DNA from: Perkinsus olseni
Taxonomy: Eukaryota
NCBI GenBank assembly: GCA_013115125.1
Contig: JABANN010000278.1
Coordinates: forward strand, 1 to 43,992
Length of the DNA: 43,992 nt
Reading direction: 5' to 3'
The notes beneath the pieces are model-generated. The model was not told the DNA's origin and did no database searches. It worked only from the letters and a program-made list of their open reading frames with translations. The number at the start of each line of letters is the position of its first letter. Positions within the stretch are counted from its first letter, which is position 1. Shown here piece after piece: positions 1,276 through 38,437 of this stretch. The position numbers were made by a program, and so were the translations under genes.

Positions 1276-2575
1276 CTACATACGTTTCTGTCTCTTGTTA
1301 GACATCTTGTAGTCCTGCTGAGCGCCAGCCTTCCGCCCCCACGAGGCTTGCTCTCCCGCCTTCTCCGAGTAGTTGTTCTTCCGTTTCTGGGACTTCATAA
1401 TATTTCTCTGTCGCTTGTACTCGGGGTCGTACTGATCATAGTACGTCAGAGGCAAATCGTGGACATCCTTCACCGCGAGAACTCCTTCAGAGCCCTCCAT
1501 TGCTGATTGCATGTCCTCTGGCGTGCACACGCCACAACCATTAATGAACCAGAACGAAGGGAAAGGGCTCGTCTTGGCCTCATCGGAGCTCGCACGCAAG
1601 TGTCTCGGGGTTTGGTAAACTGAGAAGAGTAGTCATCCAGAAGCCCAGATACCATCCATTCCCCAGCTAATAACGAGGGACACAGACTACTAATAGGCTC
1701 CAACAGAGAAGGGGCGGAAATGCGCGGAGTCAAATAAGGAGGATGCGACCTCCATTGCTTACCATATCTTTTCTTGGGCGCCACGAAGAACATCCCAGAC
1801 TGGCCAGGCTTCTCAATCAACTTCTTGTAGAAATCCTTCATATAAAACCAGTTGGGCACCAACCACAACCATGGCTTCCCCACCTTCGCCGTGAAATCGG
1901 CCAACTTTTCAGGCTGAAACAAAAATAATACCCAACCAAGTCGATGATGACCCAACAACTGATTTCTAAACCAGTTCCAACCGTACGGGCACATCACGGC
2001 CGGTAGCGGTCCTCCCATACAGTGAGACGGTGGCGGTGCATCCGAAAACTTTGACTCACATGCTCTCCACTATAAGGTGGATTGGTGAGCAAAACGTCGA
2101 ATTCCGGTGACTCGACCGAGTAGAAGTCCTCGCATTCATTATAGACATTAGTGAATCCCAATGCCTTCAAGTTGTCCACTACAGCTCCGTTGCAGTAATA
2201 CCTGAAGTGAATCCGAAATGTCGAAAATCACGCAAGTCGAGTTCATCATCGGAGGGGCTCTTACGGATCGTAAATTTTCAAATCTTCTTTGCTCTTCCCC
2301 AACTTCTCCGCCATTAGCTCAAGTATCGGCCCGACATGGCCGTATCTAAGTTTGAAGACAGCTCTTGATGGAAAGCAGCACACGATGACGTACGCCTTGG
2401 CAGGCGACTCAGCATGATCCAGCGAGTCGGTCGGATAGGGGAAAGCCTTTGACAGCACTTCCTCGACGGAGGTGCTCTCTGGTGTGCTTCCGCCTTCATC
2501 CACGGCCAGCTTCGGCTCAGCGGGCTGCTTCGACTGTTTCTTGTTCTTCCGTCGAGTTTGCTTCGTCCTGGCCAT
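1276..2575 (-). CDS. Putative SAM-dependent amino (N6-adenine-type) methyltransferase with histone H3-like N-terminus
   Basis: Manual splicing over 4 GT-AG introns gives MARTKQTRRK...KIYDPYYCNGAV...NECEDFY...DVLLTNPPYSGEH...KPWLWLVPNW...TSPFPSFWFI...KRQKRM*. It has a motif I-like DPYYCNG and a motif IV NPPY. Confidence 0.75.
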
Positions 2576-3035
2576 GCTTATCCAAAACACTGCTATGACG
2601 CGGGGTAAGCTATTCCTTAATGATCGCAATCATATGAAAATCCACAGTGTCAAGTCCAGAGAGGGGTTCCCAAGAACCAGAGGAGCTCGACCATCGTACC
2701 CAATGAGGCCAATCATGTCACGCACGGCTTAACGAGCCCGCCGCCCGCTAAAACCTCCATCGCGTACATAGGTGAGCATGAAGCTCAACGGAGCATGCCG
2801 GTTATAGTTGTCGTCGAAGGCATCTCGCTTGCCTTGCATCAGGGGAGCAGTGGAGACATAGTCCGCCTGGAACCTAGTCCCGCAGGGCCACCCACACTTG
2901 CCACCACTCCACGCAACACGGAAAAAAAAGGGAAAGGGTCAAGAAGAAATGGCTAACAGGCAGCCCAAAAAACGAATGGTTTGACTATACAGCAGCAAGT
3001 ATCGAGTAACATTTAGAGTGGTTTCTCGGCAGAAG

Positions 3036-5891
3036 CTAGACTTCTGAAACCGCTGAATCAGCCGACTCGAATGCGGCTGTATCAACGAACGAGCATCGGC
3101 TCGTGTATTGAACAGAGAACTCCACCGCACTGTGGACCTGAACAACAACAAGAAGAAGACTCAACGCTTGCTGTGTAGTACTGAAAGATAACGCTGCTGG
3201 CTCTCCATAGTAATTACTTACATCAGTGAAGAGTATACTATGGTCATCGTCCAGTTTGCAGCCCAATCGCAGGAGAAGCTCGTGCAGCCTTCGATCGACG
3301 TGCCCGTTGACGAGACTCTGGGCTACTTTACATTTACACGATGCAAGCGCTATGAACTTGCCCTCAAATTTTGTGTTGATAACGTCGATAAGGTCCTTAA
3401 TAGTGTCAACGCCTGTCGAATCTACAAAAGATACTGCGGACATATCCAGAACAACCACCTTGACCTCGTCGCTGGAGATCTCCTCAAGGACACGATCCTT
3501 GAAGTTATCGCTGTTAGCGTACCAAAGAGGCGCTTGGAAGTCCAGTACCACCACGGTCGAGATTGTTGCCAAGCAACGTGACTTCTTCAACGGCACGTAC
3601 GTGGTCGTTCCTGGCACACGGCCAAGGCGTTTGACCTTCGTACGCACGCTCGAACGAAAAATGAAGACCAGAAGGGTGAGTCCGACCGCGGTGGGCACTG
3701 CAATGTGGATACCAGTGAAGAGCATAAGAGCAAAGGTGACTACCCACACGACGAAGTCGATGAACTGCATCATCTTCAACAATGCCACAGGGGACTTGAA
3801 GTCCACCATCTTCGCAACAGCTACAACAACGTTGGCAGCTAGCACCGCTTCAGGCAAGTAAAAAAATACTGGGGTTAGTAACAGCAGGACGATGGCGATT
3901 ACCACGGAGCGTACGATGGCAGTAACTTGACTTCTCCCACCACACATAAGGGCCGCTGAGGTATTACACAAGGACCCCATCATAGGGAAGCCGCCAAGGA
4001 GCATCTGTGCGATGTTAGCAATGCCCAGTGATATGAATTCCCTATTCGGCGAGACTGGCTTCCGACCGCCGTGATCTTTGTAGATTTTCTTAGCCAGAGC
4101 GATGGACTCGAGGTACCCTGCTAGGCCGGCTAGGAGCGCTGTGGGGATGAGAGAGACGAAGTGAGCTCTCCACAAGGCTTGGGCGGGGAATAACGAAAAC
4201 GGTATGGGGATGCCTCGAGGGATCTGCCAGAAGGCAATGAGCGAATCCAACGGACTGTGTACACTAACCTCTCCCACTATCTCAATGCCATGCTGATCGT
4301 ACCGCACAGCATATCCGAGGGATATCGATATCACTAGTGTAGCCAAGGCAGCATAAGGCCGGGTTAGCTTAAACCACCGCATGGCGAGAATCTACAAGCA
4401 GCGAATAGTAGAAAAAGAAGAAAATTGTCCATCGTGAGACAGCAATCGGCTTCGCAAATGCCTTGTTAATTGATGACGATTCATCCACACAGCCTGTCGG
4501 TGGGCGGAAGCAGCAGACAAGGTGGGTGAAGCGGCGAAACACGTTGAACTTACTATAAGGAAGGCTATACACGATATGACAACAGTGTAAGGGTTGATCT
4601 GGCCGAGGTTGGTGATGATCTTCACAACAGCTTCGTGGACAAGAGTGCTACTCTTTACGTCAATACCTGTGAGTATGAAGGACAGTATCACTGGCGAGGC
4701 AACTTGCCTCAGGCAAGCAACCCTCCCCGACGCCGACCGTTCTACTAGAGATCCAATCCACTGAAACTTTGCAACGAAAGCCTTGCCGCCGGCCTACCTA
4801 GCAGGAGCTTCAGCTGGGAGCTGATGACCACTACCGCGATTGATGTGAGGAGGGCGGACATGAGGGGCCTCGATAGAAACTTCACAATCCACCCAAACCG
4901 CAGGAGGCCAAGGCCGACGTAAAGTACAGCCACCTGAACCAGTCATGAAGAGAAGTGAGAAAAACCCTGGGAATATGGATACCATAATGCTAGCCATTAT
5001 GGCTAGCGACCCCTTGTCCTCATCCGAGATTGGCAACCCTCCGAGCTGCGCTCCTAGTAGGAGAGAGGGCATGGCCATCGGCCCGACGATCACCAACGAC
5101 GAGGAACCCTGCACGGGAACGAATGGTTTTGAGAGGACGAGTTGTGAGACCTACTAGAAAGGCATATATAACAGGGGGTAGTAGGACTGCGTAAAGTCCA
5201 TAGACGGGCGGCAGGCCTGCCAAGGCGGCGTAGGCCAGGGCCTGGGGTATGGTTATGGACGAGAGAGCGATGGCTGCTATGATCTCCGGGAGGAGGTCCT
5301 TACGCCAATCATAGGGCAACCTAAGATACGATACATCGCCCTTCCCAGCAGGCCTTGCATGTCCCACACTACCACGCAGGGACCATCCCTCGGACAAACT
5401 CTCTCCACCAAAGGGTAACAGCCTTCCGCCAGCCAAGCTTCCGGAACGTGCAAGAGGCGGGCTGTTCGTGCCCCTTCACAGCTTCTCTGTTTTCGTGCAT
5501 TGAGTTCTTCGGGCTGTCCCCTCCCATACACAGAGTCTCGAAATCGTGACGAATCTCCTCCACCAGAGCTGCCTTATCGGGCGAGAGATTCTCGTACTGC
5601 GTTGCTAGCCGCCGCAGCTGCTGCTCGAATACTCCCAATCCCCAATGCCTCCGCGACAGTCCTTGCCGCCCATCCAACTCCACTTCGTAGTGCTCGAGAT
5701 CTGCCAGCGACTGCAGCGGGGCACCTGAGGGCGATTGCCCGACACATTAGTGGAGGCAGCCCACTACCCTGCTCGGTGGTTCGGACGAATTCGTCACGGC
5801 AGGAAACGGAATCTTCTACTGAACCACTGCCACCCTCGATATCACTACCCGGTGACGCAGTGACTCGACTATTGCGAGAAGGGCTCGGCAT
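3036..5891 (-). CDS. SLC26/SulP sulfate/anion transporter with C-terminal STAS domain
   Basis: Exons encode IPQALAYAALAGLPPVYGLY, GSSSLVIVGP, GLLRFGWIVKFLSRP, PNREFISLGIANI, LGRVPGT and the STAS motifs APLWYAN and VVLDMSAVSFVDSTG. Multi-exon; both ends approximate. Confidence 0.92.
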
Positions 5892-23639: not shown

Positions 23640-26600
23640 ATGCCTCCGTCCACTGCCGAGCACACTACCGTTATGAACAATCTTACACTGCGTAAGGCTC
23701 GTGGGCAGTGAACGATACCACTCCTTTCACTACTTTCAGCTTCCCCCAGCAGCGAAGGGTCCTCTTACGTGTATCCCACCGATACTGGAGAAAACGAGCT
23801 TGGCGAGCTCAACTGCAAGCCGGCTCGTCTAGTCCTAGAGGACGGCACTGAGTTTGAAGGGTAGTAGACACGAAGCCTCGTGCGGGACCGAAGCATCAGC
23901 GACGGCTCAGGTACTCCTTCGGTTACCATGGCTCGGTCGCAGGCGAGTTGGTTTTCAACACTGGTATGGTCGGGTATCCTGAGAGCTTGACTGACCCTAG
24001 TTACACTGGCCAGCTCCTTTGCATCACCTTCCCTTTGGTTGGCAACTATGGCGTCCCCTCTGACGAGCTCGACCATCTAGGACTCCCACGTCACTTTGAG
24101 GGAAAGAGAGTCCACGTCAAGGCACTGGTCATCAGTGACTACAGCTTCGCCAGCAGCCACTACACGGCTAAGAGAACTCTGTCAGAGTGGCTCAGAAGGG
24201 AGAAGGTCCCCGGTATTTTTGGCGTTGATACCCGTGCTGTGACTAAGCATGTCCGGTCATGTGGCGCCATGCTGGCTAAGCTCGTTATAGCGGACGATGG
24301 CCCTGCTGGTGAGGTAGATGCTTGGCAAGATGTCGAGTGGGATGACCCTAACGTCCGCGTCCTCCAGAAGGAAGTATCTTGCACCGAGGTCAGAGTTTTC
24401 CACCCAGCAGCGCCTGGGGAAGAGGTCGTTGACATCGGCAGCCCCGTGAAGTCCATCAGACGCATTGGCGGCGATCCGGACCCGGATAGACCTATCCGCA
24501 TCTTGGCGGTGGATTGCGGTATGAAATACAACATAATTCGTTATTTTGTGGACGTTCTTAGAGTCCAGCTGACTGTGGTGCCGTGGGACTACGACTTTAC
24601 CGAGATGGACTTCGACGGCCTTTTTCTCTCCAACGGGCCTGGTGACCCGACCATGTGTGAGGCGACTATTAAACACGTACGAAAAATCATAGAAACTCCC
24701 CGGGAGAGGCCCATACCTATTTTCGGTATTTGCTTGGGTAACCAGATCTTGGCGCTGGCGGCGGGGGCGAAGACCTATAAGATGGTATTTGGTAACCGTG
24801 GAATGAATCAGCCCGTCATCGACCTCAGGACGGCCAAGTGCTACATCACACCTCAGAATCATGGTTTTGCTGTGGACACCGAGTCCCTGCCCGAGAATTG
24901 GACTTCTCTCTTCGTCAATGCTAACGATGGCACCAATGAGGGCATCATACATCGCTATCATCCATGGTTTTCGGTCCAATTCCATCCCGAGGCATGTGGC
25001 GGCCCGACGGACACCAGTTTTCTCTTCACCTACTTCATTAACGCTGTGGTCAATCCAACTGCCTTACCGGTTACTACGGTACCATACCGCTTGCCAAGTC
25101 CAGTGAAGAAAGTGCTCGTACTGGGGTCCGGCGGACTTAGCATTGGACAGGCCGGAGAGTTCGACTATTCTGGCTCACAGTGCATCAAGGCCCTGAAGGA
25201 GTCCAACATCATGTCGGTCCTTATCAACCCGAACATTGCCACTGTGCAGACGAGTAAAGGCCTGGCGGACAAGGTCTACTTCCTGCCGGTCACTCCGGAG
25301 TTCGTCACCAGTGTTATCGAGATCGAGAAACCGGATGGTCTCTTCTGCACTTTTGGTGGTCAGACTGCGCTCAACTGTGCAGTGGCTCTTCATGATGCTG
25401 GGGTGTTGAAGAAGCACAACGTGAGGGTGTTGGGCACGCCAATCTCGAGTATAGTCATGACGGAAGACAGAGATCTTTTCTCTAAGGCCGTTGAGACTGT
25501 TGGCTACAAGGTTGCCGAGTCGGAATCGTGTACGACGGTCCAAGAAGCCGTCGAGGCAGCTTCTAAGCTAGGCTATCCCGTCCTGGTGAGGGCGGCATAT
25601 GCACTTGGCGGGCTGGGCTCGGGATTCGCTGCCAACGAGGCGGAGCTACGTGATCTTTTGCCGATCAGCTTCGCGGCTTCTAAGCAGGTTATCGTGGACA
25701 AGAGCTTGAGGGGGTGGAAGGAGGTCGAGTATGAGGTTGTGAGGGATAGTCAAGACAACTGCATCACTGTATGTAACATGGAGAACTTCGACCCCATGGG
25801 TATCCACACTGGCGACTCTATCGTGGTGGCTCCCTCGCAGACCCTCTCCAACGCGGATTACTACAGACTCAGGAAGTGCGCTATTCAGATGATACGTCAC
25901 ATTGGTATTGTGGGCGAGTGCAACATCCAGTACGCTGTGGACCCCCACTCCGACCAGTTCCGCATCATCGAGGTCAATGCTCGTTTGTCGAGGTCCTCGG
26001 CTCTGGCTTCCAAAGCCACTGGTTATCCATTGGCCTACGTTGCTGCCAAGCTGGCCTTGGGCACTGATCTTGTGACTCTACGGAATATGGTCACCAAGTC
26101 CACTACTGCCTGTTTCGAGCCCAGTCTCGACTACTGCGTCGTCAAGGTACCTCGCTGGGACCTCAAGAAGTTTGCTACTGTTGATCCTCGGGTCGGCTCC
26201 TGTATGAAGAGCGTCGGCGAGGTAATGGCTATCGGCAGGAAGTTCGAGGAGACCATGCAGAAGGCTTTGAGAATGGTTGATGAATCTTGTGACGGTTTTA
26301 CATCCGAACGCTACGACCTAGAGTTCGAGGCCAACCCCTTCCTCGGTAAGGCAGCTGACGACCAGCAGATGCTGCGTGAGGAGCTATCTCAGCCTTCTCC
26401 GCTTCGGGTATGGGCCATCGCTAAGGCCCTTGATTTGGACTATGGCGTAGAGGAGCTCCATCAGCTCACTCGTATCGATAGGTGGTTCCTGTCGAAGCTG
26501 CACAACATCCACCTTATGAAGAGACAGCTCCAGGGCATGGACCTCAATGGGCTCAGACAGGATCCTCGTCTGTTCTTGGCCGCCAAACAGTTTGGTTTCA

Positions 26601-29600
26601 GCGACAAGTACATGTCACGTATTATCAAAGAGGGTATCCCTGCCTGTATCAATCCGAGGTATCTTCGTACTCCGCAGCAAGCCTACATCGACCCTGCATA
26701 CCTCAGCCCGGAGCTTGGCCCTAAGGTAGCGGGTTCGGTCGCCAATGGTGGTACTGATTCTAGTGTGGAGTTGAGTAGTCGGCAGAGAGTGGACGAATGG
26801 TACGTCCGTTGCGTTAGAAAGCAGCTCGGGATCCTGCCGGTTGCTAAGCAAATTGATACACTCGCGGCTGAGTTCCCGGCCCAGACCAACTATCTTTATA
26901 TGACGTACAATGGCGTCGAGGATGATGTGGCACGTGCTTCTTCGGAGCAGCCTTTGGGACTACAGTCCGGCCAAGTTGACCCTAAGAGGGACATACGCGG
27001 GAAGGCCTTCGTCCAGGGCGAGCTATCACCGATGACCAAGCTAGAGTTGTCGCAAGAACTACCGCACTCTGAAGCGATGAAGTATATGATGCTGCCTCCT
27101 GTGAGAAAAGGCAACGTCAAGAAGCCCGCCGCTGTAGCCTCCCTCACAGGATCTGACAGTAGGTTGTTTGACATGGGTGTGGCTCTACTGGATGTCCCTT
27201 TTTCAGGATCAGGTGGTCGAAGTTATCGCAACAGCGTACTGGTGTTGGGCTGCGGTTGTTATCGCATTGGCTCTAGCGTCGAGTTCGACTGGTGTTCTGT
27301 ATCCTGCGTACGAGAAGTGCGGAAGAATGGGAACGTCGCCATCGTCGTCAACTGCAATCCGGAGACCGTCTCGACAGATTACGACGAGTCCGACCGGCTT
27401 TACTTCGAGGAGCTCTCACTGGTGAGATACGCCCCTTTGTTTCTTCGCTTCCGCTCCGCTGTAATACAGTAATAATCTGTGCTCGCCTCATGCTGAGGTC
27501 CCTCTGGTCGTCACTGCTGTTGCTGCTCAGGAACGCGTGCTGGATGTGAACGACTTCGAGAATCCTGAAGGTGTCGTCATATCAGTGGGTGGGCAGACGC
27601 CTAACAACCTAGCAACAGCCCTCACGAGGAACGGTGCCAGCATCCTTGGCACCAGCGTTGAGAGTAAGAGCGACTGTCCTTCCATAGTGGTTTTCAGGGG
27701 ATGTCCGTTCAGGTATCGACACTGCTGAGGACAGGTCCAAGTTTTCAATGCTCTGTGATTCACTGGGGATCGATCAACCCGAGTGGAGTGCCTTCGCGAC
27801 TTTCGAGGAGGTGCGTCCGTTGAGATTGTCTCGTACCACACCATTCGTGAATCAGGCTCGCCACTTCGCCAACAGGGTCAAGTACCCAGTACTGGTCCGA
27901 CCATCCTATGTCCTCTCCGGAGCGGCCATGCGGTGCGTCTATGATGACCAGGAGCTCGAAAAGTATGCTCTTTCGCTCCAGGTTAGAAGCGTGAAGGTTG
28001 TGTCGTAGGTTTTTGAAGACTGCAGCTGTTGTGGCCCAAGACCATCCTGTGGTGGTATCTAAGTATATTGTAAACGCCAAGGAAGTCGAGATGGATGCTG
28101 TTGGATGCGCCGGTAAGTCGCCTGATATCAGACGAGGATCTCTAGCCTAAAACCAATCACTATGTCTCGAAATATGTTCTCCACCCAATGCCACATCGAT
28201 GCGAGTGCCCTTGTGATAACCCATCGGACGTGTCCGCTGTATCAAGATGATGGTGCCACGGTGGTTATTGTGATGATAAATTCAGGAGAAATCGTCAACT
28301 ACGCCATCTCGGAGCATGTACAAAACGCTGGTGTCCATTCGGGAGATGCCACCATCCTGTTACCAGCACAGAAACTGTAAGGGAACCTCTCATCACGGAG
28401 AAGGGATGGCTCGGTGATCAGATACGTGGAGACGCATCGTCGTATCAAGAAGGTGTCCCAGAAGCTATGCAAAGCCTTGAATATATCTGGGCCTTTCAAC
28501 ATACAGTTCATGTGCAAGGAGAACGAGGTAAAGTCTACAGGAATGAAGGCGGTCAGCCGGGAGTGGTCCTATCGTGGTCAGGTTAAAGTCATCGAGTGCA
28601 ACCTTCGGGCTTCTCGTACAGTACCATTTATCAGCAAAACTTTCAATGTCAACTTCATCGAGATAGCAACGAAGGTAGGTGGTTCATTGGAGTTGAGTCG
28701 TCTCTATGGTCGATCAGGTTATGCTACGTGTACCCGTGAGACCGTGGAACATCCATCCGATCGACACCGAGTTTGTCGGCTGCAAGGCGCCAGTGTTTAG
28801 CTTCCAGCGACTGAAGAACTCCGACCCTCGTCTTGGTGTTGAGATGCAAAGTAGCATTCACTGGCCTGTCACGGTTGTTGTAGTGGCTTGTTCCTGTACG
28901 TGCAGGCACTGGTGAAGTGGCGTGCTTCGGTAGAACACCGTACGAGGCTTACCTGAAGGCGTGGTTGTCGGCTGGCTACTGCTTGCCTACTAAGACGATA
29001 TTGGTCAGTATTGGTCCACAACAACAGAAGGAGGAGTTTTTGCCTTGGGCCAAGGTACTCAACTTGATGGGACTGTCGCCGCTATGGTGATCGTTTCAGG
29101 TCTTGATAAGGCTTGGATACCACTTGTTCGCTACGAGGTCGACCTACCAGACTATCAAGGACAAGTTGGATCCGAGCCAGAGCTCTCTCACGCTAGTGTA
29201 GGCTGGCTGTCATGCCTGGCTGCCGTTGAGGGCTGCGTCCAGGTACAAGCCCTATGCTCGACGAGAGCCTAACGTCAAGACACTCATACAGAGTGGGAAG
29301 ATCGACATGTGTATTGTCATCCCGAGCAGCGCCGACTCCTGCGCGGTAGACGGCATGCACTCTCGGTTGTTGCTGTTGTTGTGATGGTCGTCGTTGATGT
29401 AGATCACAGAGGGCTTTGAGATGAGGAGGTTGGCTGTTGATACGCGCACTGCCCTCATCAACGACATAAAGGAAGCTACCTTCCTCGTGCTCTCCTTACA
29501 GAAAAAGTAAGTTAATATTTGAGGTGCCTTTTGAGGATCTTTGGTCAGAGCGGAGCGAGAGAGGGACGGGAAGATTTTCTTCGGCATCGAGACGTGGCAA

Positions 29601-29621: not shown

Positions 29622-29808
29622 AAGTATTGAATTTTATTACTGCTCTTTGGGGTAGAGGCCGATGGCCTAATTTTTTTTCTCGAATCTGCTGGCCTTTCGA
29701 GCTAGTTGCACACTGCAAGCTCCCACTGCAACAGAGTTTTTCTAATATCGGTGGCAGCTGTGCTTGCGTTGGCACGGCTGCATGCTGTGGATAGCAGTTT
29801 GTTGCACA

Positions 29809-31152
29809 ATGTCATCACCTTTTTACGCGGACTTCGAGAAGGTCAAGCAGTGGTTGTCGACAGGAAAGCTTGTCCACCCACTGTCGAGTGTCACTTCGGT
29901 TGATGTAATGACAGCTCTTATGAGCCAACCCAAAACGGAAGTCGCCAAGGGCCTTCACAAGACTCTATTTCGAGCGGCAGCTGAACACACAGTATTCGTG
30001 ATATTGGATGGGTGTGGTATCAATGTACTCGAGGAGCATTTGGATCGAAACAGCTTCCTTCGGAGGAACCTCATTGGCACGGTTAACAGTGTATTTCCTG
30101 CAACTACTAGTGCAGCGCTTACCTCCTATGCTACGGGAAAATACCCGGCAGAACACGGCCTTCTGGGCTGGACCACACACATCGACGGGGAAGTAGCGAT
30201 CCATCCTCTACCGTGGACTAATGCCGTGACAGGAGCCCCATTGGACGACACGAAGGAGATGCACGACAAAGTTTTTCGTTTTGATTCTTTTTATGACAAG
30301 CTTGATAAGGATGAGGTGAGACTCTATCAGTACTATGATGATAGTCCCTTCACGAGGGTCGTGCGGGGTGACGGGCCCAGAGTTATTAAAACTAGTCTTA
30401 CTGATTTACAGATGGTCATAGCGGAGTTGCCCAAGTATATACAGGAAAAGACTGACTCAAAGGAGACTACATTCACGGTAGTATACTGCCCGGAGCCAGA
30501 CACGACGGAGCATGCATTGGGGATACACGACCCAGCGACGGGTATCAAGCTACATGAGTTGAATGAGCAGCTCGAGGAGCTGTGGACGGCTTTGAATAGG
30601 ATTCCAGCATCAGTGCGGATGGTGGTGTCAGCTGATCATGGTCAGCTCAACCTGAGCCATGTACAAGTTTATGATTCGCAAGATGATGGTCATACTAGGG
30701 CCAACGTTCTTGCACTCGGCAGGCTTTTGAGAATACCTCCTACGGTTGAGCCTCGCTCTTTTGCCTTGCATCTGTGTGATGGAGTGACGGTAGAGGAAGC
30801 CCGGGAAGTGATTCTGAAGGAAGCCCCGGATGTGGCTGATCATTGGGTACTTCTCACCCCGGACGAGGTTGAGGCTTTACGGATATTGGGCCCTGGTAAG
30901 CTGTCAGAGGCTGCTAGAGAACAGCTTGGGGACCTCCTCGCTGTGACTAATGGGCCTTACCATTTAACTTATCATGTTAATGGGAAGGCTGGCACTGCGA
31001 AGATGGTTGGGCAGCATGGAGGGCTCTTGCCAGCGGAGGTCAGGATTCCCTTTATCGCGCTTGATACGGCACAGAGTGCTGATAAAATGAGGGGTGATTT
31101 CGCTACCATCAAGAAGGTATATTCCGCAGACTTCACGTGGTGTATGCCGTAG
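29809..31152 (+). CDS. Alkaline-phosphatase-superfamily nucleotide pyrophosphatase/phosphodiesterase (intronless)
   Basis: Metal and nucleophile motifs VILDGCG, SVFPATTSAALTSYATG..P.EHGLLG, PDTTEH..G, VSADHG and GQHGG....EVRIP. ATG at 29809 gives 447 aa. Confidence 0.9.
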   Translation: MSSPFYADFEKVKQWLSTGKLVHPLSSVTSVDVMTALMSQPKTEVAKGLHKTLFRAAAEHTVFVILDGCGINVLEEHLDRNSFLRRNLIGTVNSVFPATTSAALTSYATGKYPAEHGLLGWTTHIDGEVAIHPLPWTNAVTGAPLDDTKEMHDKVFRFDSFYDKLDKDEVRLYQYYDDSPFTRVVRGDGPRVIKTSLTDLQMVIAELPKYIQEKTDSKETTFTVVYCPEPDTTEHALGIHDPATGIKLHELNEQLEELWTALNRIPASVRMVVSADHGQLNLSHVQVYDSQDDGHTRANVLALGRLLRIPPTVEPRSFALHLCDGVTVEEAREVILKEAPDVADHWVLLTPDEVEALRILGPGKLSEAAREQLGDLLAVTNGPYHLTYHVNGKAGTAKMVGQHGGLLPAEVRIPFIALDTAQSADKMRGDFATIKKVYSADFTWCMP

Positions 31153-35168: not shown

Positions 35169-35717
35169 CTGCGATGATGATGATGATCAGCATCATTCTT
35201 ATGTACACTATCAGTGGTGATTCTTCTCTACCAGTTTTATCGACGACCTTCGGGCTACTGTTATGAATTAAGGCGCAGTACCATAGTATCATTTAAACAC
35301 CGTGTTACATCCCGTTCGGCGGCTGCGGCTGCTGCTGCTGTTACGTTATTCTCAACAGTCTTGTATAATAATACCACTCTACCAGCATACTTGTCACCTC
35401 TCCCTTGGCTATCGCAGCCGTCGCCGCTGATACTGTTGTTGTTATTAAACGATTAAGGTTGTGGTCCCCGCCAGGGCGTCTAATGTCCGGATCGTCTTGC
35501 GTTGTTACCCTTGTGCAGTGCCGGGTGAATCCTACTGGGCGCGCGCGGTTGTCGTAGAAGCAAAGTCGATCTCGCTCGCCCTAAATTGCTCACCATTGGA
35601 GACGTCTGCCCCTTGCGTTCCAGCTCTCTTCCAAGGCACAGTCTGGGAGGTTAATCGCCCCCAGAGAGTTAATTCATCCCGTCGCCATTTTTCTAATTAA
35701 CAGTCTTATATATACAA

Positions 35718-38437
35718 ATGACGGTCTGCCGGCGCCATTCCAGGGCACTCGCACTAGCAGCCATCACTTTGACAATCTCTTCAAGGGCTTGGGAGAATGA
35801 GGTCCCACCAGACGAGTTCATCGTGTCCCCGGTCCAATACGGTCATGGCCGTCGCCTTGGTACTAGCGCAGACACCTGTGAAGCCAGTCTTGATGGTCAG
35901 CCTTGGGAGCCCCTCCGTTTGGGTGTCCATTACATTGATCTTGAGACTGATCTCCCCGACCAGACTATGCGCGACTTCGTTCGAACAGACGCAGTGCCTA
36001 GAGCTGTCTCCTACTGGCAGAAGACGTTGAAGGTTCGTCGAGCCCAGGCACCTATCAGGGCTGGTAGATCCTGCCGTAGCCAGTGGCTTCCCGGCAAATG
36101 TGCTCGTGTGCGCTATGACGGCGGCGGGGCTTCCTGCGGGTCCATCGACGGTACCCCTATCATGATACCCGACGAGTACCTCGATGAGCTCATCACCTAC
36201 GGAGGTTGTTATACTGACGGTACCTGCATTTATCCGACGGTCTATCCAGCGGGCACTGGCTACAGCGATGTCGATATGGTCATACTCGTGACGGCCAAGC
36301 CTGATTCTGATTGCGGTTCCAATGGTGTTGGTACCTTCGCCTTCGCTCTGAGCTGTCAGAGAGATCAGTGTGACAGGCCCACTTTTGGCCTCATCAATGT
36401 ATGCCCGCAAATGATTGACGTGACTTCCCAGTTTGCCAAGGATGAGCTTGTCGGGACTATGATCCACGAGTTGACTCATGCTCTGGTATTCTCTACTAGC
36501 AAGTATCCACTCTTCCGATATGCTGACGGATCTCCCCGTGTGCCGAGAGACCCGGCGGACTCTCAGCTCCGTCCTTATAGCACCAGGTAGGGTGATCCAG
36601 CGAGAAGAGGATCTCAATGCAGTTGCTCAGGTACCAGTGTTCGACTTCTGGTGGCCTCTCTGTTACCTATCCTAAGTCGAGCGGGAACTACATGTACACT
36701 GACGCTCCTGGTGTAGTCGAAGTCTCGTCTGCTCGTGGTATGAATAAAGAGGACTGCAAGTGCCCTACTGGCCGTATGAGCTCGACCAGCAGCGATGATA
36801 TGCAGAAATGCCTGCTCAAACCAAAGGGCAGCTGCGTCTACAAGGTCGTCACGCCCAAGGTGGGCTTGACAGCTGGATGAAAGTCGGACTAGTAGTCGTC
36901 TCAGGTTGTTGAGAAGGCGAGGGACTATTTTGGATGCTCAACACTGGACGGTATGGAGCTTGAGAACCACGGTTCTGGTCAGGGCTGTACGGTGCTCGAA
37001 TCTCACTGGGAACAGAGGATTCTCGAGGGCGAGCTGATGGTGGGTGGAGTGGTAGCTTTCAATCAGGCTGTGAGGAGTCGAAGTTTAGGTACCAGTAACG
37101 GGCTTCTCCTACAACTTTATGTCCGAGATCACATTGGCGTTGTTTGAGGACAGCGGTTGGTATCTTCCTGACTACTCCATGGCGACGAAGATGTACAAGG
37201 GAATGTTCTTTGGGTAGGCTCTGTGGCGGAGCGACGCCAAGTGACGCTTTCCTGAGCAGGTACAAGCAAGGATGCTCGTTTGCGGAGGACAAGTGTATCA
37301 ACGATGCCGGGGCCGTGACGTTCGAGAATGGGCGAGAGAAGACGAGCCACTTTTGTAGTGCAGAAGATGATGACGAGCATCGGTAAGGGGCTCTGAACAC
37401 GGCGAGATGAGCAAACTGATGATCTGTGCAGATGCTCGCTTGACCTCAAGACTAAGGTTCAATGCACCATCAAGCACGAGAAGGCACCCTGCCCTCAATA
37501 CCAGTAAGAAAGAGGTGGATCGCTGTGCTGAGATACTGTCTTGGTATCAGGTATGGCGGTCCTGTTAAACATGGGAAGTCGTTTTATGGGGATTACTGCC
37601 CCATTTGGGAAGGCGCTTCTGCGTGGGACTGCGAACTGGGACGATGTGAGTTGCCCACACCGCGCTTTCCATTGCTGGGCTCACCATTGCTACAACCTCA
37701 TCATCAACTCAGTCGATGATATGTCTCGGCTTAATGGTGAGCTCTTCGCCACGGACAGCATCTGCCTGATGAGTTCATTGAGGAGATCGCAGTACCTTGG
37801 AGGTGGCAAAGTTAAGATTATTCCTAACCCAAAACAGGTGACTGCGGACAGCAAGGGCGTGGTAGCTATTAGCGGCTTGCGGTATCTCAGATTAGTGCTT
37901 GTCACAGAGTTGAGTGCAGCGCCGATAGGAAGAGCTACGCAGTCTTCGTAGCCGTCGGGTATGATGGCAACAGCAACGACGTGCGTCCAGTCGGCACCTG
38001 TAAGTTCAATCTACGATTCAAAGCTTCGCTGTCCCTGAAATTCTTGCGTAGGTTACACAGCTGGTCAAACGCTCAAGGATCCTAACGGCGAGTACTCGAA
38101 AGAAGTCAGTGCTTACAGCTACGAGGAAGGCTATCTCACGTGTGCAGATCCTGCCCTAGTGTGCGCTGTGAAGAAGTGCGTATCCTCGCTGCTCTGGCGA
38201 TTCATGGTTTATGCTCACTCGTTTATCAGTTACCCTCATTTGTCACTGCAGTCGAACAACGAGATCTCGGACGGCTCGGGTACGATAATCTGTTCCGCCG
38301 TTGAGACGCGCTATACCAGCAGAAATATGTCGTGCTACTTCCAACCGGATTATAGTGTTGCTGCCCCTCCGACATCCGCTCGACCTTTGTCTGTAGTGGT
38401 GACTCTCGTCACATATATATTTATGATAATCAGTTGA
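35718..38437 (+). CDS. Leishmanolysin/GP63-like M8 zinc metalloprotease
   Basis: Signal-like N-terminus, FAFALSCQRDQCDRPTFGLIN, HELTHALVFS (HExxH), VTPKV..KARDYFGC..LDGMELEN, SHWEQRIL.GELM, DYCP. Cys-rich C-terminus and a hydrophobic tail consistent with a GPI or TM anchor. Confidence 0.93.

What the first reader, a model, noticed from the sequence alone, without database searches (positions are those of the whole stretch)
2546..2575. Histone H3 N-tail mimic (MARTKQTRRK) at the start of an NPPY methyltransferase-like protein
Seen: the first in-context ATG of the 1276-2575 gene encodes MARTKQTRRK, 9/10 identical to histone H3 MARTKQTARK. It preserves A1, R2, T3, K4, T6, R8 and K9 at the free N-terminus, followed by a methyltransferase-like domain (DPYYCNG...EDFY...TNPPYS) instead of a histone fold. 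Known: H3K4 readers and writers need this N-terminal ARTK, and histone mimics exist (influenza NS1 ARSK, G9a ARKT). NPPY is the catalytic motif of amino-methyltransferases (m6A/m4C and HemK types). Inference: the enzyme could be modified or recruited by H3K4/H3K9 machinery, linking histone marks to nucleic-acid or protein methylation. I do not know of this architecture being described.
Basis: partly seen in the sequence, partly recalled or inferred. Interest (0 to 1): 0.8.

Follow-up and report, generated by a model that had tools for sequence, protein, structure and literature searches.

The report
H3-like tail on Perkinsus methyltransferase
A predicted adenine methyltransferase of the mollusc parasite Perkinsus begins with a short tail almost identical to the start of histone H3; the match is real and kept in two Perkinsus species, but it may be only a nuclear-targeting signal.

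Summary
Window 2575-2546 (minus strand) encodes MARTKQTRRK, which starts a five-exon gene (2575-1276). All four introns appear as joints in transcript contigs. The 299-aa product is Perkinsus olseni KAF4659146.

Transcript contigs of two runs stop matching the genome at 2591, beside an AG. This fits spliced-leader addition 14 nt before this ATG, with no other ATG between.

MARTKQTRRKNKK is identical in all 8 P. olseni copies that reach it and in the P. marinus orthologue. The next 27 residues are only 12/27 identical.

Outside Perkinsus it is absent: 0 of 242 family proteins and 0 of 80 metagenome loci. Many relatives carry generic Lys/Arg-rich N-termini instead.

The enzyme has a Rossmann fold and an NPPY motif. 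The P. marinus orthologue is already catalogued as a predicted N6-adenine methyltransferase (Iyer et al. 2016 supplement).

Best reading (0.5): a disordered basic nuclear or chromatin-targeting tail whose H3 likeness is not shown to be used. A true H3K4-type mimic stays open (about 0.35). The H3K9 part of the claim is weaker. No binding or modification was tested. Interest is moderate.

The parts
2546..2575 (-). Start codon and first ten codons, MARTKQTRRK (the H3-like tail; residues 2-7 equal H3 1-6)
   Evidence: H3 1-18 as printed in PMC8166343
2537..2575 (-). The 13-residue block MARTKQTRRKNKK, identical in P. olseni copies and in P. marinus
   Evidence: residues 2-13: 12/12 identical; linker 14-40: 12/27; Fisher one-sided p 0.0007
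2590..2591 (-). AG dinucleotide, candidate spliced-leader trans-splice acceptor. Transcript contigs of X10 and X2 stop matching the genome exactly at 2591
   Evidence: records 3 and 9; SL ends in AG per PMC3101222; sequence. No SL letters were seen, so this is inferred.
2394..2575 (-). Exon 1: disordered tail, linker, and the start of the conserved core (FPYPTDSLDHAESP)
2265..2345 (-). Exon 2, after a 48-nt in-frame intron (2346-2393)
   Evidence: joint 2345/2394 in X1, X10, X2
2060..2201 (-). Exon 3: DPYYCNG (SAM-binding loop, motif I-like), EDFY, TNPPYS (strand-4 catalytic motif)
   Evidence: D87 P88 C91 G93 N128 P129 P130 invariant in 124 sequences
1763..1913 (-). Exon 4 (core strands; L153, P155, Y185 invariant)
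1276..1619 (-). Exon 5: end of the core, conserved basic helix DPEYKRQRNIMKSQKRK, Lys/Arg-rich C-terminal tail, TAG stop at 1278-1276
   Evidence: (contigs continuous over 1255-1619)
2592..2902 (-). Long leader or intergenic RNA present in some spliced contigs (X1 record 1; X2 record 10 runs on into the upstream SulP gene). It holds 10 upstream ATGs and probably represents unprocessed or polycistronic precursor

Best explanation
The gene encodes a 299-aa nuclear Rossmann-fold amino-methyltransferase with an NPPY motif. It belongs to a broad family of microbial-eukaryote enzymes predicted to methylate adenine N6. The substrate, DNA or RNA, is unknown.

The catalytic core (about residues 41-250) is flanked by two basic segments. 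One is a disordered N-terminal tail of about 40 residues. The other is a conserved basic C-terminal helix followed by a tail.

Translation starts at the first AUG of a probably spliced-leader trans-spliced mRNA. After removal of the initiator Met, the protein should begin ARTKQTRRKNKK.

I read this 12-residue block as a selected short linear motif that targets the enzyme to the nucleus or to chromatin or nucleic acid. It is the Perkinsus version of the Lys/Arg-rich N-termini carried by many family members. Its identity to H3 residues 1-6 is real and conserved within the genus, but it is not shown to be used by histone readers or writers.

Shown: the sequence, the splicing, the position of the 5' boundary, the conservation pattern, the fold and the family.
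Inferred: SL addition, Met removal, nuclear targeting and catalytic activity.
For: Gene and start.

The tail is disordered. It has no secondary structure and pLDDT 60-64 over residues 1-30 in a model with mean pLDDT 87.4.

The block is under constraint. It is identical in 8 of 8 P. olseni cluster members that reach it (the ninth is truncated), and in P. marinus Pmar_PMAR017622 and a Logan fragment. Residues 2-13 are 12/12 identical against 12/27 in the linker (p 0.0007).

The generic basic-tail reading:
- 122 of 182 family members that start with M and have at least 30 residues before the core carry a 20-residue window with at least 8 K/R.
- 75 of those 182 have at least 6 K/R in residues 2-21.
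- None of 242 members starts with MART or ARTK.
- 0 of 80 metagenome loci have M-small-R-[TS]-K upstream of the core.
- RRKNKK within the block fits the classical monopartite nuclear-signal pattern (my recollection of that pattern).

Family:
- Fold Z 11.0 to 2f8l, 10.3 to METTL5, 9.6 to M.TaqI and similar for many amino-MTases.
- phrog_799 'DNA methyltransferase' at E 1.5e-4 for P0001 and 2e-8 for P0012.
- The P. marinus orthologue is listed as an N6-MTase in the same list as CHLREDRAFT_205675 in the supplement of PMC4738411.
Against: An 8 of 9 match to H3 is very unlikely for a random basic tail, at about 6e-8.

ARTKQ itself (residues 2-6) is 5/5 conserved between two species whose linker is 44% identical (p 0.03). 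A plain nuclear signal would not obviously require that.

The protein already has a family-wide conserved basic C-terminal element that could serve as the nuclear signal.

The closest relatives outside Perkinsus (about 50% identity; P0012-P0019) appear to start directly at the core with no tail. The tail is therefore an add-on with some lineage-specific purpose.

No localisation data exist.
Confidence: 0.5

Rival explanations
1. True functional H3 N-tail mimic. After Met removal, the free ARTKQT end is bound by proteins that normally recognise the unmodified or K4-methylated H3 tail (PHD fingers, Tudor or chromo readers, RbAp46/48-type WD40 proteins, histone importins or chaperones). It may also be methylated by H3K4 methyltransferases. 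This would recruit or regulate the nucleic-acid methyltransferase according to chromatin state.
For: The match is 8 of 9, and perfect over the six residues that H3K4 readers contact. The chance estimate is about 6e-8. The motif sits at the extreme N-terminus behind a Met-Ala, meeting the M-Z-R-X-K rule of PMC8166343. The start codon is supported by RNA contigs. The tail is disordered and exposed. Residues 2-13 are fully conserved between P. olseni and P. marinus while the linker diverges. Perkinsus has conventional histones with conserved H3 K4 and K9 contexts (PMC2939574 and PMC4751559, passages read). Human N-terminal mimics much less similar to H3 (PRTKQ, SRRKQ, VRTK) bind such readers in vitro (PMC8166343).
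Against: No binding, modification or localisation data exist. The motif is confined to one genus of a family with 1655 representative clusters. The conservation sample is two species, and ARTKQ alone reaches only p 0.03. The K9 context is degraded: position 7 is R and position 10 is N. From recall, HP1-type chromodomains need the small A7. Ala N-termini are often N-alpha-acetylated in eukaryotes (recall), which would block readers that need the free amine. Whether this one is acetylated is unknown.
Confidence: 0.35
2. Captured fragment of a histone H3 gene. The first 30 nt or so derive from an H3 5' end by recombination or gene conversion and persist without H3-related function.
For: This would explain a near-perfect match without selection for mimicry. 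Nothing in my calls supports it directly.
Against: Similarity ends after residue 9, and nothing resembles H3 residues 10-20. Conservation of the block against a diverging linker argues for function, not for a relic. I could not fetch a P. olseni H3 gene for a DNA-level comparison.
Confidence: 0.05
3. Annotation artefact. The protein really starts elsewhere, at an upstream exon, at the upstream Met annotated in some alleles (MAAFRIS-MARTK...), or at a downstream Met, so ARTK is not at a free N-terminus.
For: Two deposited P. olseni models (P0002, P0003) start 7 codons upstream, and one partial model (P0007) starts further upstream. The frame is open between the AG at 2591-2590 and the ATG. X1 and X2 hold spliced contigs with a long leader.
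Against: In this window the upstream frame has no ATG and closes with a stop. The Met of P0002 and P0003 corresponds to 2596-2594, which lies 5' of the point where most transcript depth leaves the genome (2591). No cis joint enters the region from upstream within 3300, and X10 has zero depth over 2654-2875. The long leader has 10 upstream ATGs. The next in-frame Met is residue 72, inside the invariant core. The P. marinus model starts at the same Met.
Confidence: 0.05

Closest known systems
Predicted N6-adenine methyltransferases of Iyer, Zhang and Aravind 2016 (PMC4738411), Group 2 (M.EcoKI/M.TaqI-like), third clade, typified by Chlamydomonas CHLREDRAFT_205675
   Same: The P. marinus orthologue (257/299 identical to the window's protein) is in the same supplement list as CHLREDRAFT_205675. 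Shared features are the NPPY strand-4 motif, a conserved motif N-terminal to the core, a broad spread in microbial eukaryotes, and a distant link to mobile-element or phage DNA methyltransferases.
   Different: The paper lists the Perkinsus protein with no extra domain and says nothing about its N-terminus. Some clade members carry CCCH or KH domains. In my sample of 103 long members, Pfam found only SDE2_2C (2), zf-met (1), Fpg/Nei domains (1) and a Glyco_hydro_20 fragment (1), plus two weaker sub-cutoff matches (PRP3, TMEM214). Some of these may be fused gene models. No member has been characterised experimentally as far as my searches show.
H3 N-terminal mimicry proteins (H3TMs) of Chen et al. 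2021 (PMC8166343): human proteins starting M-Z-R-X-K, such as VRK1, BCL11B, TSHZ1, HIVEP1, PCLAF
   Same: The motif sits at the extreme N-terminus behind a removable Met, with R at position 2 and K at position 4. The Perkinsus tail fits the rule and is closer to H3 than the seven peptides that paper screened on its domain array.
   Different: The human set is enriched in transcription factors and co-regulators and was tested in vitro. Here the carrier is a predicted nucleic-acid methyltransferase of a protist, and nothing has been tested.
Internal or C-terminal histone mimics (influenza NS1 ARSK, G9a K165, PRMT6 ARTK), as summarised in PMC8166343
   Same: Short H3-like ARxK motifs in non-histone proteins, some on methyltransferases that methylate themselves.
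   Different: Those motifs are not at a free N-terminus. The NPPY chemistry here is that of amino-group (adenine, cytosine or glutamine) methylation, not SET-domain lysine methylation.
Solved amino-methyltransferases with the most similar fold: lmo1582 (2f8l), PH1948 (1wy7), METTL5 (6h2u), DrdV, MmeI, M.TaqI, KsgA/DIMT1/Erm
   Same: Class I Rossmann fold with Z 9.6-11.0 over about 135-180 residues of model 40-247. The N/DPPY/F-type motif lies after strand 4.
   Different: Sequence identity is 5-14%. No single family stands out from the rest of the list, and no target-recognition domain is present. The fold match says nothing about substrate.

Membership tests
Iyer-Zhang-Aravind Group-2 clade-3 predicted N6A-MTases (CHLREDRAFT_205675 type) | Orthologue listed in the clade by its authors | tested here: met
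   Pmar_PMAR017622 (P0253, 257/299 identical to the window's product) appears as 'N6-MTase' in the same list as CHLREDRAFT_205675 in supplementary file 1, part 42. I did not see the list's heading. The assignment to 'clade 3' rests on the main text naming that Chlamydomonas protein as its type.
Iyer-Zhang-Aravind Group-2 clade-3 predicted N6A-MTases (CHLREDRAFT_205675 type) | Rossmann-fold SAM methyltransferase core with an (N/D)PP(Y/F) motif after strand 4 | tested here: met
   AF2 model pLDDT 87.4. Fold matches at Z up to 11.0 to class I MTases. N128 P129 P130 are invariant and Y131 at least 90% conserved in 124 sequences.
Iyer-Zhang-Aravind Group-2 clade-3 predicted N6A-MTases (CHLREDRAFT_205675 type) | [quoted passage not shown] | tested here: inconclusive
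   An invariant D53-H54-x-E56 motif with P58 and a short helix at 59-64 lies just before the core. Whether it is the element the paper means, and whether it positions the Asn, was not tested.
Iyer-Zhang-Aravind Group-2 clade-3 predicted N6A-MTases (CHLREDRAFT_205675 type) | SAM-dependent N6-adenine methylation of DNA or RNA | not testable with these tools
   No member has been assayed, to my knowledge. Only PMC4738411 holds the type protein's name in the library.
H3 N-terminal mimicry proteins (H3TM, PMC8166343) | M-Z-R-X-K at the protein's N-terminus (Z = A, G, S, C, T, P or V) | tested here: met
   M-A-R-T-K; rule quoted.
H3 N-terminal mimicry proteins (H3TM, PMC8166343) | The Met is the true initiator | tested here: met
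   It is the first ATG downstream of the 5' boundary of the main transcript form at 2591. There is an upstream in-frame stop and no ATG. P. marinus has the same start. Spliced-leader addition itself is inferred, not seen.
H3 N-terminal mimicry proteins (H3TM, PMC8166343) | Initiator Met removed, leaving a free alpha-amine on residue 2 | not testable with these tools
   Expected from the Met-aminopeptidase rule for Ala (stated in PMC8166343). N-alpha-acetylation cannot be excluded.
H3 N-terminal mimicry proteins (H3TM, PMC8166343) | Binding to H3K4me0 or H3K4me3 effector domains, and K4 methylation by H3K4 methyltransferases | not testable with these tools
Histone H3 | Histone fold following the tail | tested here: not met
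   No Pfam histone domain. The model is a Rossmann fold. Similarity to H3 ends at residue 10.
Pfam PF07669 Eco57I methylase | Score at or above the gathering cut-off (25.3 bits) | tested here: not met
   13.8 bits, E 0.063, over the NPPY region only; 16.2 bits for the exon alone.
HemK/PrmC glutamine methyltransferases | Score at or above the NCBIfam cut-off (TIGR03534, 199.1 bits) | tested here: not met
   11.1 bits, E 0.2, motif-IV region only.

The most novel reading that the evidence does not exclude
Perkinsus has grafted a near-perfect copy of the histone H3 K4 context (free ARTKQT) onto a predicted adenine N6-methyltransferase. The enzyme would then be read, methylated or chaperoned like an H3 tail, coupling nucleic-acid adenine methylation directly to the H3K4 reader and writer network. 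It would be the closest natural N-terminal H3 mimic yet seen, and the first on a nucleic-acid methyltransferase.
Probability: 0.3. Interest if true: 0.75.

Novelty: new variant of a known kind. Interest (0 to 1): 0.45.

Why it matters
If the tail is used as an H3 mimic, it would show that N-terminal histone mimicry, so far described for human transcription regulators, also arose in an early-branching relative of dinoflagellates. It would show this on an enzyme that marks nucleic acids, giving a simple peptide-level handle for asking how adenine methylation is aimed at chromatin.

It would also give a first functional clue for a large, uncharacterised family of eukaryotic predicted N6-adenine methyltransferases (1655 representative clusters).

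If it is only a nuclear signal, the gene remains an ordinary member of that family, and the finding is a cautionary case of a short-motif resemblance.

Tried and rejected
- The whole genome of the window is not held, and earlier findings are not open.
- Sequence search of PDB found nothing with the single protein. The family profile gave only NPPY-motif matches at E 0.57-0.73.
- Pfam and NCBIfam gave sub-threshold matches only.
- The raw-read RNA run X24 laid no reads, so there is no read-level view of 5' ends, strand or spliced-leader letters. The contigs showed no SL letters, so trans-splicing is inferred from where contigs break and from depths.
- Domain fusions in 103 longer family members gave no consistent clue to substrate.
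- I looked for an H3-like first exon upstream of the core in 80 metagenome loci and found none. Six loci have MARTISNPLGG about 2 kb downstream, in another ORF. Small 5' exons in unknown organisms could be missed.
- I could not fetch a Perkinsus H3 gene, P. marinus DNA, or other perkinsid orthologues. So there is no synonymous-site test of codons 2-13 and no DNA-level test of H3-fragment capture.
- I considered the deposited 407-aa model of this contig (P0004) and rejected its 3' extension, because RNA contigs run unspliced through the TAG at 1278-1276.
- I considered HemK-type protein methylation. Nothing here excludes it, but no evidence favours it.
- No complex prediction was run. No reader protein of Perkinsus was in hand, and the tail motif is shorter than the tool's minimum.
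- Literature searches for a non-histone MARTKQT protein, for histone mimic plus ARTK and for the clade's type protein found no description of this combination. Subscription-only papers are not covered.

Full report
**What is there.** On the minus strand, window 2575-2546 reads MARTKQTRRK. It opens a gene of five exons: 2575-2394, 2345-2265, 2201-2060, 1913-1763 and 1619-1276. The spliced product is a 299-aa protein identical to Perkinsus olseni KAF4659146 (P0001). Contigs of three coded RNA-type runs (X1, X10, X2) carry all four introns as clean GT..AG joints (CT..AC on the plus strand) and run unspliced through the TAG at 1278-1276. A fourth run of raw reads laid nothing. The model deposited for this very contig (P0004, 407 aa, partial) has the same N-terminus but a 3' extension that these contigs do not support.

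**Is MARTK the true start?**
- The reading frame has a stop 18 codons upstream and no ATG in between.
- The X10 transcript contig and one X2 contig both end exactly at 2591, 16 nt before the ATG. In X2, the contig ending there has depth about 3200, against 455 for the contig that continues into the intergenic region.
- An AG lies at 2591-2590. The Perkinsus spliced leader printed in PMC3101222 ends in AG and has no ATG (passages read). If the leader is joined at 2589, leader-bearing and unprocessed RNAs share sequence up to 2591 and diverge there. That is where the contigs break.
- No leader letters were seen, so trans-splicing is inferred.
- No ATG lies between 2589 and 2575, while the long leader (to 2902) has ten. 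The context is A at -3 and G at +4.
- Two deposited P. olseni alleles are annotated from a Met seven codons upstream. That codon corresponds to 2596-2594, 5' of the boundary, and in this window it is ATA.
- The next in-frame Met is residue 72, inside the invariant core.

I take the start as well supported.

**How H3-like, and how likely by chance?** After the Met, residues 1-6 (ARTKQT) and 8-9 (RK) equal H3 as printed in PMC8166343. Position 7 is R instead of A, and position 10 is N instead of S. With the residue frequencies of Lys/Arg-rich N-termini of this family, an independent-residue model gives about 6e-8 for at least 8 of 9 matches. With whole-protein frequencies it gives about 2e-9. 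That is well below one per proteome. It is a crude model, and many proteomes exist.

**Conservation.** All 8 P. olseni cluster members that reach the N-terminus have MARTKQTRRKNKK; the ninth is truncated. The P. marinus orthologue Pmar_PMAR017622 (P0253, 296 aa) and a Logan fragment (P0252) have the same 13 residues.

| Region, P. olseni vs P. marinus | Identical |
|---|---|
| Residues 2-13 | 12/12 |
| Linker 14-40 (includes a 3-residue gap) | 12/27 |
| Core 41-250 | 192/210 |

The Fisher one-sided test of 2-13 against the linker gives p 0.0007. For ARTKQ alone it gives p 0.03. The block is therefore under constraint in the genus. The evidence that the H3-specific residues, rather than the basic cluster, are the constrained part is weak.

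**Outside Perkinsus.**
- The family is large: 1655 representative clusters at E <= 1e-3. Named members come from Guillardia, diatoms, a haptophyte and a red alga, and the atlas adds chlorophytes.
- None of 242 non-Perkinsus members begins MART or ARTK. Four have an internal ARTK.
- Of 182 members that start with M and have at least 30 residues before the core, 122 have a 20-residue window with at least 8 K/R.
- In 80 metagenome loci (the best of 414 confirmed), none has M-small-R-[TS]-K upstream of the core.
- The nearest non-Perkinsus relatives (about 50% identity) seem to start right at the core.
- They share with Perkinsus a strongly conserved basic C-terminal element (DPEYKRQRNIMKSQKR ... 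WG-H/R-K), modelled as a helix.

**The enzyme.**
- Pfam gives only a sub-threshold Eco57I match over NPPY. NCBIfam gives nothing near its cut-offs. PDB sequence searches give nothing useful.
- PHROGs family 799, 'DNA methyltransferase', matches at E 1.5e-4 (P0001), 2e-8 (P0012, nearly the whole core) and 2e-5 (P0090).
- An AlphaFold model from 124 sequences has mean pLDDT 87.4. It shows a Rossmann core over about 40-250, no structure in residues 1-36 (pLDDT about 60-64 over 1-30), and a long C-terminal helix at 251-279.
- Fold searches return many amino-methyltransferases at similar scores: Z 11.0 for 2f8l, 10.9 for 1wy7, 10.6 for DrdV, 10.3 for METTL5 and 9.6 for M.TaqI, plus KsgA/DIMT1/Erm. 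Spermidine synthases score alike, so only the general class is established.
- Invariant in 124 sequences are D53 H54 E56, D87 P88 C91 G93, N128 P129 P130, L153 P155 and Y185. All are present here, so the enzyme looks catalytically intact.
- The P. marinus orthologue is listed as 'N6-MTase', without other domains, in the supplement of Iyer, Zhang and Aravind 2016, in the same list as CHLREDRAFT_205675. The main text names that protein as the type of the third clade of Group 2 (M.EcoKI/M.TaqI-like). It describes the clade as broadly distributed in microbial eukaryotes, sometimes fused to CCCH or KH domains, with bacterial cognates on conjugative elements (section 9 read).
- The catalytic family is thus already catalogued in silico. 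I found no experimental work on it.

**Mechanism.** The most economical reading is a nuclear adenine or amino methyltransferase with two basic flanks. The Perkinsus N-terminal block would be the local form of the family's basic N-terminal targeting segment. RRKNKK fits the classical monopartite signal pattern, which I recall rather than tested.

Against a purely generic signal stand four points: the improbability of the H3 match, the conservation of ARTKQ, the existence of a second, family-wide basic element, and the absence of any tail in the closest outgroup.

The rival, a working H3K4-type mimic, fits the rules in PMC8166343: a removable Met, R2, K4 and a free N-terminus. It also fits the fact that far poorer human mimics bind PHD and Tudor readers and NuRD in vitro. 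Perkinsus has conventional histones with conserved K4 and K9 contexts.

Against the rival stand the lack of any functional data, its confinement to one genus, possible N-alpha-acetylation, and a degraded K9 context. I put the generic-tail reading at 0.5, the functional mimic at 0.35, and H3-fragment capture and a wrong start at 0.05 each.

**Novelty and verdict.** The enzyme family and the idea of N-terminal H3 mimicry are both in print. An H3-identical N-terminus on a predicted nucleic-acid methyltransferase, conserved across two Perkinsus species, was not found in the literature I could search. It is a testable curiosity of moderate interest, not an established mechanism.

Noticed in passing
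window 1276-1290 and downstream to about 60 (minus strand): The gene model deposited for this contig (P0004, 407 aa, partial) splices around the stop codon and adds about 108 residues. RNA contigs run unspliced through the TAG at 1278-1276, so the 299-aa form is the supported one.
   Followed up: partly
window 2565-3300 (minus strand): One spliced X2 contig (record 10) runs from the upstream sulfate-permease gene, with its 84-nt intron 3136-3219 removed, across the intergenic region into the methyltransferase coding region. This suggests read-through or polycistronic precursor RNA that is later resolved by trans-splicing.
   Followed up: partly
window 3036-5475 (minus strand): The upstream neighbour is a SulP-type sulfate permease with a STAS domain (Pfam E 1.5e-30 and 8e-16), split over several exons.
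   Followed up: no
window 23858-27472 (+), 29746-31152 (+), 35697-36590 (+): Other genes in the window: a fused carbamoyl-phosphate synthase (small chain, GATase and large-chain domains in one 1204-aa open frame), a type I phosphodiesterase/nucleotide pyrophosphatase, and a leishmanolysin-like (M8) peptidase fragment.
   Followed up: no
P0001 residues 241-265 (window about 1380-1460, minus strand) and relatives P0012-P0019: A basic C-terminal element (LP-x-TY-x-DQ-x-DPEYKRQRNIMKSQKR, then WG-H/R-K) is almost identical between Perkinsus and metagenomic relatives that are only about 50% identical overall. It is better conserved than much of the catalytic core, and its function is unknown.
   Followed up: partly
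L051, L070, L072, L074, L075, L080 (about 2 kb downstream of the methyltransferase match): Six metagenome loci carry an ORF starting MARTISNPLGG downstream of the family member. It is an unrelated gene that merely shares MART.
   Followed up: no
P0229 (815 aa), P0207: Two family members carry an N-terminal SDE2 C-terminal domain, and one of them also has Fpg/Nei DNA-glycosylase domains after the methyltransferase. These may be real fusions hinting at DNA-related roles, or merged gene models.
   Followed up: no
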